Shown: positions 12,207 to 13,526 of the stretch, piece by piece | Layout of the letters: the number at the start of each line of letters is the position of its first letter | Position numbering within the stretch: the first letter of the stretch is position 1 | From: a virus | Reading direction: 5' to 3' (one strand) | Virus genome (UHGV): UHGV-0282409 | DNA length: 17,466 nt | Made by a program: the position numbers and the translations under genes | Notes under the pieces: model-generated | Told to the model about the DNA's origin: nothing | Seen by the model: the letters and a program-made list of their open reading frames with translations, nothing else | Databases searched by the model: none

Positions 12207-13040
12207 TTATATGAAAAAAACCGCATATTCTTTCTTTTTCGGTTCCGGGTTAAGGGACATCAGGGAGACCGCATTGAACAGCGCCATCAGCGGGTCAATT
12301 TTTCCCCGTCCACTGGCCTGTTTGGTGATAAGAATGGCGTTACCTTTAGGCTCCACCCGGGCATTGCCGACACACCAGGCCATCAGGGGCTGGTCACCAT
12401 GCACCAGCACCCCTTCAGCCAGTTTGCGCTCGGTGGTTTTAATGGCCCCGCCCAGTTTCCAGCCCTGGCTTATCCCCACCACAATTCCGTCGGGGATCCC
12501 GGCTTCCGCCAGTGAATCCAGAATCTGCCCCACCCCTGACGGGTCAATACCGATATGGTCCAGTAACTCAGCCTCATGAATGCGACGCACATATTCCGCC
12601 ACTTCCGCCGTGTCATCCCCGACACGCCGGACAATGGTCATATCTCCACAGGCAACAAGATCCTGAAACCGGGACGCCTCGCTCTTCCGTCGGACCACCG
12701 CGGTTTCATGCGCCCAGGCATGGCCCCAGCCCAGCCATTCGCGGGTCTCCCGGTCACGCCCAATCACATACATCCCCAGCAGATCATCCAGCCCTCCGCC
12801 GTCAATCCCCACCGTCACCACATCAGCACGACGCAGGATATCGTCCAGGCTGATACAACGGCCCTGCTCTTCCCAGAAATCAGCCCCCGCCCAGCGGTCA
12901 GAGCGCAGGGCAAGACCAATTTCCACATTGGCGTGTTTTGACATGAACCCCCGGAATGTCTCTTCACCGGCTTCCCGGGCTTTACGGTACTCCCGGTACA
13001 GAAAGGCCTCATCCACTGAATAGCCGAGATTCGTCTTGCC
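12207..13040 (-). CDS. terminase large subunit, C-terminal (nuclease-domain) fragment only; upper boundary approximate
   Basis: Lower ~275 codons of ORF 12207..13526: ...VTVGIDGGGLDDLLGMYVIGRD...HIGIDPSGVG...ITKQASGRGKIDPLMALFNAVSLMSLNPE..., characteristic of terminase large subunit C-termini. The N-terminal ATPase domain is absent; upstream the ORF reads into an unrelated lipoprotein. Boundary ~13040 +/- 40 nt, estimated from the paralogous lipoprotein's C-terminus. Confidence 0.7.
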   Translation of the reverse strand, partial: GKTNLGYSVDEAFLYREYRKAREAGEETFRGFMSKHANVEIGLALRSDRWAGADFWEEQGRCISLDDILRRADVVTVGIDGGGLDDLLGMYVIGRDRETREWLGWGHAWAHETAVVRRKSEASRFQDLVACGDMTIVRRVGDDTAEVAEYVRRIHEAELLDHIGIDPSGVGQILDSLAEAGIPDGIVVGISQGWKLGGAIKTTERKLAEGVLVHGDQPLMAWCVGNARVEPKGNAILITKQASGRGKIDPLMALFNAVSLMSLNPEPKKKEYAVFFI

Positions 13041-13526
13041 GTTCAGGGAAACCAGATAGGTTTTGTTGGCTACGGTCTCTGGGGTGTTGCCCATGTAGTT
13101 CATCACCTTGGCGCAAACTACCACCTCGTCGCCTTCCTTGAGTTCAGGGTCGCTGGCGGTCCATTTCTTGTTGCCCAGATAGAGTGAGCGGAAGATGTAG
13201 AACTTCTCGCTGCTCTCGTCATCGGCGATGTAGAACGAACCGTTGCCGAAGTTGGTAGAGAACTGCTCCTTGATGCTCACTACCTTGCCCTTGATATAGA
13301 CCTCTTTGTCAGACTCCACGCCTGCCTCCAGGGTCTTGCAATAGTTGATAGCTGCAATGCTGTTGAATGGGTCGGCAGCAGTACCTGTACCCTTTGGCTC
13401 GCCCTCTGTGGTGCCACCGGCATCAGGCTTGGTAGGCTGTGTGTAAGGCTCTGGTACGTCCTCGCAGCTGCTGAATGTGAAGGCAGCCATAGCCGCCATC
13501 AAAACTGAAAATATATACTTTTTCAT
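13041..13526 (-). CDS. Bacteroidales-type lipoprotein (~160 aa), paralogous to the C-terminal domain of the 407-aa lipoprotein; lacks its own stop
   Basis: ATG 13524-13526; MKKYIFSVLMAAMAAFTFSSC is a lipoprotein signal peptide with lipobox Cys. The body (...ADPFNSIAAINYCKTLEAGVESDKEVYIKGKVVSIKEQFSTNFGNGSFYIADD...GDEVVVCAKVMNYMGNT...) aligns with the C-terminal ~110 aa of the neighbouring protein (...KPYTVAQALEKINAGTAGDAKVYATGIIVKVKDVDTGQYGNGTFVISDD...GKKVVVSGTLLDYNGT...). Reads in frame into the terminase fragment. Confidence 0.65.

What the first reader, a model, noticed from the sequence alone, without database searches (positions are those of the whole stretch)
12980..13110. In-frame junction between a Bacteroidales lipoprotein gene and an enterobacterial phage terminase fragment
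ORF 12207..13526 is one reading frame, but its N-terminal ~160 aa are a Bacteroidales-style lipoprotein and its C-terminal ~275 aa are the C-terminal half of a phage terminase large subunit. The terminase ATPase half is missing and the lipoprotein has lost its stop codon. Everything at higher coordinates looks Bacteroidales in codon preference and AT-rich spacers; everything at lower coordinates is an E. coli-type lambdoid late operon. A natural locus in one genome is the least likely explanation. More plausible are a chimeric assembly, a constructed sequence, or a very recent insertion that decapitated the terminase.
Basis: partly seen in the sequence, partly recalled or inferred. Interest (0 to 1): 0.8.

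Follow-up and report, generated by a model that had tools for sequence, protein, structure and literature searches.

The report
Chimeric E. coli phage–Segatella join
The odd "lipoprotein–terminase" gene sits where an E. coli prophage sequence is butted against a Segatella (Prevotella) copri chromosome sequence, each identical to a separate public record, so it is almost certainly a chimeric sequence and not a real gene.

Summary
ORF 12207..13526 (minus strand, 439 aa) joins the first 164 residues of a Segatella copri-complex lipoprotein to the last 274 residues of an E. coli prophage terminase large subunit. The breakpoint is window 13033|13034.

- **E. coli side:** window 1-13033 has 0 mismatches to an E. 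coli chromosome (NZ_CP124400.1), where the terminase is intact at 553 aa.
- **Segatella side:** window 13033-17466 has 0 mismatches to human-gut-type metagenome scaffold ERZ28661278 scaffold_811, where the lipoprotein is intact at 475 aa.
- **Junction:** the two matches overlap by one base. There is no filler, adapter or repeat. The two parent regions share no k-mer of 16 nt or more.
- **Frame:** both genes are cut at the second base of a codon, so the frame survives. A random join does this about 1 time in 6.
- **Composition:** codon usage and tetranucleotide profile flip at the junction.
- **Public data:** the junction 41-mer and the fusion protein are absent from IMG/VR, JGI metagenomes, 15 billion proteins and 153 billion gene positions. 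Both intact parental sequences across the breakpoint are found there.
- **Biology:** no integrase, att site, IS end or cos/pac site lies at the break.

Verdict: a non-biological chimera, either a chimeric template or misjoin, or an in-silico concatenation. Only read-level data can exclude a very recent real insertion, which I put at about 3%. Interest is low.

The parts
1..13033 (-). E. coli HK97/lambdoid-type prophage late operon. It runs from a partial C40 peptidase (lambda K-like) gene through minor tail genes, tape measure, tail chaperones, major tail, head-tail connectors, portal and a fused protease-capsid gene, to the 3' part of terL.
   Evidence: 0 mismatches over 13,033 nt to NZ_CP124400.1. 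Annotation comes from RefSeq records. The left end of the window falls mid-gene.
12207..13033 (-). 3' part of the E. coli prophage terL gene (codons 279/280-553): ATPase lid, linker and RNase H-like nuclease domain. It has its native stop, followed by the native terminator-like hairpin at 12165-12182.
   Evidence: (TerL_nuclease only), and 42/45 (alignment to HK97 TerL 6Z6D; catalytic D302 equivalent retained).
13033..13034 (.). Breakpoint. Base 13033 is the only base shared by both parental alignments. The join is blunt and seamless, with no inserted bases.
   Evidence: Three-way alignment and exact extension test. No adapter sequence was found, and the parents share no k-mer of 16 nt or more.
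13034..13526 (-). 5' part of a Segatella copri-complex lipoprotein gene (codons 1-164/165 of 475): signal peptide, lipobox Cys21 and the first of two OB-fold repeats.
   Evidence: 100% identical to L002 11269-11762. Pfam gives OB-fold hits on the intact parent.
13571..14794 (-). Segatella DUF5689 lipoprotein gene (407 aa), intact.
   Evidence: Pfam PF18942, E = 1.8e-67. This exact protein is found only on two contigs, an ENA scaffold of sample SAMN14445678 and a Logan contig of run SRR11412836. It is 96% identical to a S. copri MAG.
14866..17466 (-). Segatella 866-aa gene with no family hit (likely an outer-membrane protein). Its ATG is exactly the last three bases of the window.
   Evidence: No Pfam or NCBIfam hit. 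This exact protein is on a single contig in the whole collection, ERZ28661278 scaffold_811.

Best explanation
The window is a non-biological chimera. A 13,033-nt piece of an E. coli prophage late operon is joined bluntly, tail to head, to a 4,433-nt piece of a Segatella copri-complex chromosome.

Both pieces happen to be on the same strand, and both genes are cut at the second base of a codon. The Segatella lipoprotein start, signal peptide and first OB-fold repeat therefore read straight into the terminase lid and nuclease region, down to the terminase's own stop. This creates a 439-aa ORF that no organism encodes.

**Shown:**
- the identity of each half to a separate organism
- the exact breakpoint
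- the lack of homology at the breakpoint
- the intactness of both parental genes elsewhere
- the absence of the junction from public data

**Inferred:** how the join arose. There is only 1 nt of overlap and no shared k-mer, so a repeat-mediated de Bruijn-graph misjoin is excluded. The join must come from one of two sources:
- a chimeric template or read, for example blunt ligation of two fragments during library preparation, that an assembler followed
- a purely computational concatenation or construction of the sequence

I cannot separate these two without reads.
For: 1. Window 1-13033 has 0 mismatches to E. coli AVS0528. Window 13033-17466 has 0 mismatches to ERZ28661278 scaffold_811. The overlap is exactly 1 nt.
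2. Both parental genes are intact in their own genomes: TerL 553 aa and the lipoprotein 475 aa.
3. Codon-usage log-likelihood changes sign, and tetranucleotide correlation flips from 0.78-0.88 / 0.08-0.15 to 0.07-0.31 / 0.53-0.83 across the junction. GC is 0.578 on the left against 0.501 on the right.
4. No k-mer of 16 nt or more is shared between 19 kb of the E. coli parent and 17.8 kb of the Segatella parent. No adapters and no Ns are present.
5. The junction 41-mer has 0 hits in IMG/VR and JGI metagenomes. As positive controls, the intact Segatella allele gives 4 contigs and the intact terL gives at least 50 contigs.
6. The fusion protein is absent from 15 billion proteins and 153 billion gene positions.
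7. The right part has no match in 5,426 complete E. coli genomes, in phages or in plasmids.
8. Two independent assemblies carry this exact Segatella strain, an ENA scaffold and a Logan contig of SRR11412836. Both run straight through the breakpoint with the intact gene.
9. No integrase, att site, IS end or cos/pac site lies at the break. The break is mid-gene in both parents.
10. Inter-genome translocations are the most common misassembly class in benchmarked metagenome assemblies (PMC9661791).
Against: - A graph assembler does not normally create a join without a shared k-mer, so a plain 'assembly error' is not sufficient. A chimeric read or a deliberate or accidental concatenation has to be assumed, and neither was observed directly.
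- The join is same-strand and in-frame, and it falls right at the end of the first OB-fold repeat (...LNGKT|). I estimate that coincidence at about 1/6 times roughly 6%, judged after the fact.
- The origin of the window is unknown. I could not check whether E. coli and this Segatella strain co-occur in one sample.
Confidence: 0.93

Rival explanations
1. This is a genuine, very recent insertion of E. coli prophage DNA into the lipoprotein gene of a Segatella copri strain. Foreign DNA would have been taken up and joined by illegitimate, end-joining-type recombination. The result is a dead prophage fragment and an exported lipoprotein-TerL-nuclease fusion expressed from the Segatella promoter.
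For: - The junction is seamless and in-frame, and the Segatella promoter region, signal peptide and lipobox are intact.
- The complete nuclease domain is retained.
- The Segatella locus is flanked by nuclease genes and encodes OB-fold lipoproteins, so contact with extracellular DNA is conceivable. This last point is inference only.
Against: - There are 0 mismatches to E. coli over 13 kb and unameliorated E. coli codon usage.
- The intact allele is the one assembled twice from the data that hold this exact Segatella strain.
- The junction and the fusion protein are absent from every collection searched, although both parents are present.
- No second junction, integrase, att site or IS is in the window.
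- Homology-free integration of 13 kb or more across phyla, reaching assembly-level frequency, has a very low prior.
Confidence: 0.03
2. This is a genuine capture of Segatella chromosomal DNA inside an E. coli prophage. The host would be E. coli and the foreign piece the Bacteroidales segment.
For: The larger part of the window is E. coli prophage. Lambdoid prophages are mosaic and do accumulate foreign 'moron' DNA (established knowledge).
Against: - None of 5,426 complete E. coli genomes, 50,697 phage records or 72,556 plasmids has any match to the right-hand 4.4 kb.
- The break destroys terL, an essential packaging gene.
- The foreign DNA is 100% identical to a Segatella metagenome scaffold and keeps Segatella synteny for all 4.4 kb.
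- The window shows no return to E. coli sequence.
Confidence: 0.01
3. This is a deliberately engineered fusion, for example a lipoprotein-anchored nuclease construct.
For: The join is in-frame and blunt, and it falls at the end of an OB-fold repeat on the lipoprotein side.
Against: - No vector, linker, tag, restriction-site scar or cloning junction is present.
- The TerL break lies inside the ATPase domain, not at a domain border.
- The fusion is flanked by 12 kb of unmodified prophage structural genes and 4 kb of unmodified Segatella chromosome, which no expression construct would carry.
Confidence: 0.01

Closest known systems
Inter-genome translocation misassembly or chimeric contig in metagenome assemblies (the class benchmarked by metaMIC, DeepMAsED and ResMiCo; PMC9661791)
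   Same: - The two flanks belong to different organisms.
- Both parental loci are contiguous elsewhere.
- Composition changes abruptly at one point.
- The artefactual ORF spans the breakpoint.
   Different: Typical graph-assembler chimeras form at a shared repeat or k-mer. Here the parents share 1 nt at the join and no k-mer of 16 nt or more nearby. The join therefore looks like a blunt chimeric template or a plain concatenation, not a repeat-mediated misjoin.
HK97-type terminase large subunit (PF03354 TerL_ATPase + PF20441 TerL_nuclease; HK97 TerL structure 6Z6D)
   Same: The C-terminal 274 residues are identical to residues 280-553 of an E. coli prophage TerL. That TerL aligns to HK97 TerL (E = 1e-9). 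The RNase H-like nuclease domain is retained.
   Different: The Walker A/B ATPase core (residues 1-278) is missing, and so is the upstream terS gene. The fused ORF cannot act as a packaging motor.
Bacteroidota surface lipoproteins with tandem OB-fold repeats next to DUF5689 lipoproteins (Segatella copri locus on ERZ28661278 scaffold_811)
   Same: The N-terminal 164 residues are identical. The upstream genes are in the same order, 866-aa protein then DUF5689 then lipoprotein, as in S. copri-complex MAGs.
   Different: The second OB-fold repeat and the C-terminal domain of about 170 aa are replaced by E. coli sequence.

Membership tests
Inter-genome chimeric sequence (artefact) | The two flanks match different organisms at near-perfect identity | tested here: met
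   0/13,033 mismatches to E. coli and 0/4,434 mismatches to a Segatella scaffold. The right side is assigned to the S. copri complex.
Inter-genome chimeric sequence (artefact) | Each parental locus is uninterrupted across the breakpoint in independent records | tested here: met
   Intact terL is found in E. coli genomes and in at least 50 IMG/VR contigs. The intact lipoprotein gene is found in L002, L003 and 4 metagenome contigs.
Inter-genome chimeric sequence (artefact) | Abrupt compositional change at the breakpoint | tested here: met
   The codon-usage LLR changes sign and the tetranucleotide correlation flips within the 12.5-13.5 kb windows.
Inter-genome chimeric sequence (artefact) | Shared repeat or k-mer at the join (the repeat-mediated graph misjoin subtype) | tested here: not met
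   The overlap is 1 nt, and the longest k-mer shared between the parents is 15 nt and lies elsewhere. This subtype is excluded. Blunt chimera or concatenation remains.
Inter-genome chimeric sequence (artefact) | No, or only anomalous, read support across the breakpoint; coverage discontinuity | not testable with these tools
   No reads are available. Indirect evidence: the Logan contig of SRR11412836 passes the breakpoint without a branch.
Functional phage terminase large subunit | N-terminal ATPase domain with Walker A/B motifs | tested here: not met
   The fusion gives no PF03354 hit. The parent has it at residues 63-224, which are upstream of the break.
Functional phage terminase large subunit | C-terminal RNase H-like nuclease domain | tested here: met
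   PF20441, E = 2e-8, at fusion residues 193-421. The Asp aligned to HK97 D302 is retained.
Genuine prophage integration or horizontal transfer into Segatella | Integrase, att sites, or a transposon/IS end at the junction | tested here: not met
   The break is mid-terL and mid-lipoprotein. Nothing in the annotation, the ORFs or the repeat scan marks an element end.
Genuine prophage integration or horizontal transfer into Segatella | A second (reciprocal) junction restoring the target gene's 3' part | not testable with these tools
   The window ends inside E. coli prophage DNA at position 1. The source contig is unknown.
Bacteroidota lipoprotein | Signal peptide with a lipobox cysteine | tested here: met
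   The sequence reads MKKYIFSVLMAAMAAFTFSSC|EDVPEP directly. The acidic residues after Cys fit the Bacteroidota surface-export signal. That point rests on my own knowledge and was not tested.

The most novel reading that the evidence does not exclude
The junction is real. A Segatella copri cell in a human gut took up at least 13 kb of E. coli prophage DNA and integrated it, without homology, into a variable surface-lipoprotein gene. The lineage then became abundant enough to be assembled. This would be a directly observed, unameliorated Proteobacteria-to-Bacteroidota transfer. It would also produce an exported OB-fold/terminase-nuclease fusion protein.
Probability: 0.03. Interest if true: 0.7.

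Novelty: not a real feature. Interest (0 to 1): 0.07.

Why it matters
As biology it does not matter, because the fused gene is an accident of joining two unrelated sequences. It matters for data hygiene. Left unflagged, such a contig would:
- put Segatella genes on a "viral" or E. coli contig
- create a spurious lipoprotein-terminase protein family member
- suggest a false phage-host link or inter-phylum gene transfer

The sequence should be split at 13033|13034. If the junction were real (about 3%), it would be a rare snapshot of an inter-phylum DNA transfer at zero divergence.

Tried and rejected
1. **Repeat-mediated misassembly: rejected.** The overlap is 1 nt and the parents share no k-mer of 16 nt or more.
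2. **Adapter or linker at the join: none found.** I searched TruSeq, Nextera, ONT and PacBio adapter sequences, and no base at the join is unaccounted for.
3. **Hi-C or restriction-site ligation scar: not seen.** There is no GATC or duplicated site at the join (sequence read directly).
4. **Inverted repeat spanning the junction: judged chance.** It is 12909-12923 / 13026-13040, 15 nt, 87% complementary. About 15 seeds of 7 nt are expected in 700 nt, and the chance that an arm covers the junction is roughly 8%.
5. **Clean domain-boundary fusion: only half true.** The lipoprotein break is at the end of OB repeat 1. The TerL break lies inside the ATPase domain.
6. **Finding the source contig: failed.** I searched for the fusion protein, the junction 41-mer and the neighbouring proteins. 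Only the two non-chimeric contigs carrying this Segatella strain turned up.
7. **Testing whether the E. coli prophage occurs in the same sample: failed.** I used exact-protein look-ups. The proteins sit in 8,826-14,178 blocks of the collection and only the 24 blocks with the longest contigs are read, so a single sample cannot be queried.
8. **Tandem repeats and promoter/terminator scans near the junction: nothing relevant.**

Full report
**Observation**

The ORF map shows a 439-aa ORF at 12207..13526 on the minus strand. All other long ORFs in the window are also on that strand. Its translation has three parts:
- It starts with a Bacteroidota-type lipoprotein leader, MKKYIFSVLMAAMAAFTFSSC.
- It continues with a domain of about 115 aa.
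- It then reads ...LNGKT-NLGYSVDEAFLYREYRK... into a phage terminase large-subunit (TerL) C-terminus.

Pfam finds only TerL_nuclease in it (residues 193-421, E = 2e-8). The intact E. coli homologue has TerL_ATPase (63-224) plus TerL_nuclease. Two refinements are needed: the ORF is on the minus strand, and the lipoprotein has lost 310 C-terminal residues, not only its stop codon.

**Left flank**

Window 11000-13600 matches 1,260 E. coli records, and every match stops at query position 2034, which is window 13033. It also matches E. coli and Stx-converting phage records with the same end point.

The whole of 1-13033 matches E. coli chromosomes. Seven records reach 100.0%. An exact comparison gives 0 mismatches in 13,033 nt to NZ_CP124400.1.

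RefSeq annotation identifies the region as a late operon. It contains a C40 peptidase, minor tail protein L, tape measure, tail chaperones, major tail, gp17-like completion protein, HK97-gp10-like protein, head closure protein, connector, portal, a fused protease-capsid gene, and terL of 553 aa. In E. coli, terL is followed by terS and an HNH endonuclease.

**Right flank**

The exact 407-aa DUF5689 protein is on only two contigs in the 153-billion-gene collection. They are ENA ERZ28661278 scaffold_811 (sample SAMN14445678, 35 kb) and a 3-kb Logan contig of SRR11412836. The exact 866-aa protein is on scaffold_811 alone.

Window 13033-17466 is identical to scaffold_811 (0/4,434 mismatches) and to the Logan contig as far as that contig reaches. 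On both contigs the lipoprotein gene continues uninterrupted to 475 aa. On scaffold_811 it sits among housekeeping genes such as ribosomal protein L31, uridine kinase and a pyruvate carboxylase subunit.

A scan of GTDB species genomes places the locus in the Segatella (Prevotella) copri complex. The best match is 96% amino-acid identity to a S. copri MAG, and the order 866-aa gene, DUF5689, lipoprotein is conserved.

The right flank has no match in 5,426 complete E. coli genomes, in phage records or in plasmids.

**The junction**

The two parental alignments overlap by exactly one base, 13033. Identity to E. coli ends there, and identity to Segatella begins there.

- There are no inserted bases, no Ns and no adapter sequence.
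- The longest word shared between 19 kb of the E. coli parent and 17.8 kb of the Segatella parent is 15 nt, and it lies elsewhere.
- Both genes are cut at the second base of a codon: lipoprotein codon 165 (ACA) and TerL codon 279 (CCG). They give a hybrid ACG, and the frame is preserved.
- For a random join of two coding regions, same strand and same phase has probability about 1/6.
- On the lipoprotein side the break falls at the end of the first of two OB-fold repeats (...LVSLNGKT | ADGSGSG...).
- On the TerL side the break aligns to the NPALG motif near residue 245 of HK97 TerL (6Z6D). That position is inside the ATPase domain, between R240 and R270, which the HK97 paper assigns to that domain. 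The nuclease catalytic residues start at D302. The join is therefore not a clean domain swap.
- A 15-nt imperfect inverted repeat covers the junction, but it is within chance expectation.

**Composition**

GC is 0.578 on the left and 0.501 on the right. I built a codon model from the E. coli-side genes and another from the Segatella-side genes. The N-terminal 164 codons score -0.38 per codon and the C-terminal 274 codons score +0.45 per codon, with the sign change in the 30-codon window that contains the junction.

Tetranucleotide correlation to the left profile falls from 0.78-0.88 to 0.07-0.31 across the junction. Correlation to the right profile rises from 0.08-0.15 to 0.53-0.83. There is no amelioration on either side.

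**Is the junction seen anywhere else?**

No.

| Search | Chimeric junction or fusion | Positive control |
|---|---|---|
| IMG/VR viral contigs, 41-mer | 0 hits | Intact terL across the breakpoint: at least 50 contigs |
| JGI metagenome contigs, 41-mer | 0 hits | Intact Segatella allele across the breakpoint: 4 contigs |
| 153-billion-gene index, fusion protein | Absent | Intact 407-aa and 866-aa neighbours found |
| 15-billion-protein collection, fusion protein | Absent | Intact 475-aa lipoprotein on 31 contigs, in a 90% cluster of 1,900 members |

**Interpretation**

Every half of the evidence says that two unrelated, unmodified sequences have been placed end to end. Nothing at the breakpoint marks a biological element end. 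It is not a prophage att site, not the cos/pac region (which lies upstream of terS), and not an IS or transposon end. The window contains no integrase.

The Segatella strain is essentially unique to one sample, and two independent assemblies of that sample's data carry the intact gene.

A shared-repeat misjoin is excluded. The join therefore reflects one of two things:
- a physically chimeric template or read, such as a blunt ligation product, that an assembler followed
- a computational concatenation

One detail is compatible with either. The right end of the window coincides exactly with the ATG of the 866-aa gene, while the left end is mid-gene, on a codon boundary of the C40 peptidase gene. 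This suggests that at least one window edge was set from gene coordinates. It does not tell how the junction arose.

Inter-genome translocations are reported as the commonest misassembly class in metagenome benchmarks (PMC9661791). The name of the parental scaffold looks like the style of SPIRE-type per-sample assemblies, which are built from Illumina reads with MEGAHIT (PMC10767986). The link to that resource is my inference from the name.

**Rivals**

A genuine, extremely recent insertion of E. coli prophage DNA into a Segatella lipoprotein gene cannot be formally excluded without reads. It would require all of the following:
- homology-free integration of at least 13 kb across phyla
- zero divergence
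- a frequency high enough for assembly, even though the intact allele is the one assembled
- absence from every other dataset

I give this about 3%. Capture of Segatella DNA by an E. coli prophage gets about 1%, and an engineered construct about 1%. Both fit the data worse: no E. coli record holds the right flank, there is no vector or scar, and the TerL break is not at a domain border.

**If the ORF were expressed**

This part is inference only. The product would be a lipid-anchored, probably surface-exported protein. It would carry one OB-fold repeat followed by the TerL lid and the RNase H-like nuclease. It would have no ATPase core and no TerS partner, so it could not package DNA, and the prophage fragment would be dead.

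**Verdict**

The feature is a chimeric join, not a gene. Split the sequence at 13033|13034.

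Noticed in passing
window 13034-17466 (minus strand); parent scaffold L002 5914-14508: The Segatella locus encodes three proteins in a row. The first is an 866-aa protein with no Pfam or NCBIfam hit. It ends in ...VSYRF, which looks like an outer-membrane barrel C-terminus, and its 90% cluster has 11,448 members. The second is a DUF5689 lipoprotein. 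The third is a lipoprotein with tandem OB-fold repeats. In the parent scaffold the locus is flanked by Exo_endo_phos and Endonuclease_NS genes. It may be an uncharacterised extracellular nucleic-acid binding or utilisation system of gut Prevotellaceae.
   Followed up: partly
window 13034-13526; L015, L016, L017 and L019: The lipoprotein gene is a variable allele within the S. copri complex. DNA identity to a S. copri MAG (96%) stops near window 13424, just after the signal peptide, and the protein at that position is only 32% identical. A different Prevotella MAG carries a version that is 90% identical. This looks like allelic replacement of a surface lipoprotein.
   Followed up: partly
window 7733-9994 (portal gene), especially 8187-8468: The portal gene varies in length among otherwise near-identical E. 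coli prophages: 753 aa here, and 807 or 861 aa elsewhere. A 282-nt segment of the window aligns twice to the 861-aa version, at 89% identity for the second copy. This points to a variable internal duplication in the portal C-terminal part.
   Followed up: no
window 17464-17466 and window 1: The right end of the window is exactly the ATG of the 866-aa gene. The left end falls mid-gene, on a codon boundary 152 codons into the C40 peptidase gene. At least one window edge seems to follow gene coordinates, which says something about how the window was cut and nothing about biology.
   Followed up: partly
L087 (NZ_CP124400.1) and four other E. coli records with the match at 836-13868: Several complete E. 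coli chromosome records start at coordinate 1 with the ATG of this prophage's terL gene. Presumably a start-fixing tool rotated the chromosome to a terminase gene instead of dnaA.
   Followed up: no
window 12909-12923 and 13026-13040: A 15-nt inverted repeat, 87% complementary, has a right arm that spans the junction (GAGATTCG|TCTTGCC). It is probably chance. It could also be noted as possible template-switch microhomology if the chimera arose during amplification.
   Followed up: partly
window 10206-12143: The capsid gene is a fused prohead protease (Peptidase_S78) plus major capsid protein of 645 aa. This is already annotated as such in related Stx-phage records and occurs in more than 14,000 blocks of the gene index. 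It is known and ordinary.
   Followed up: no
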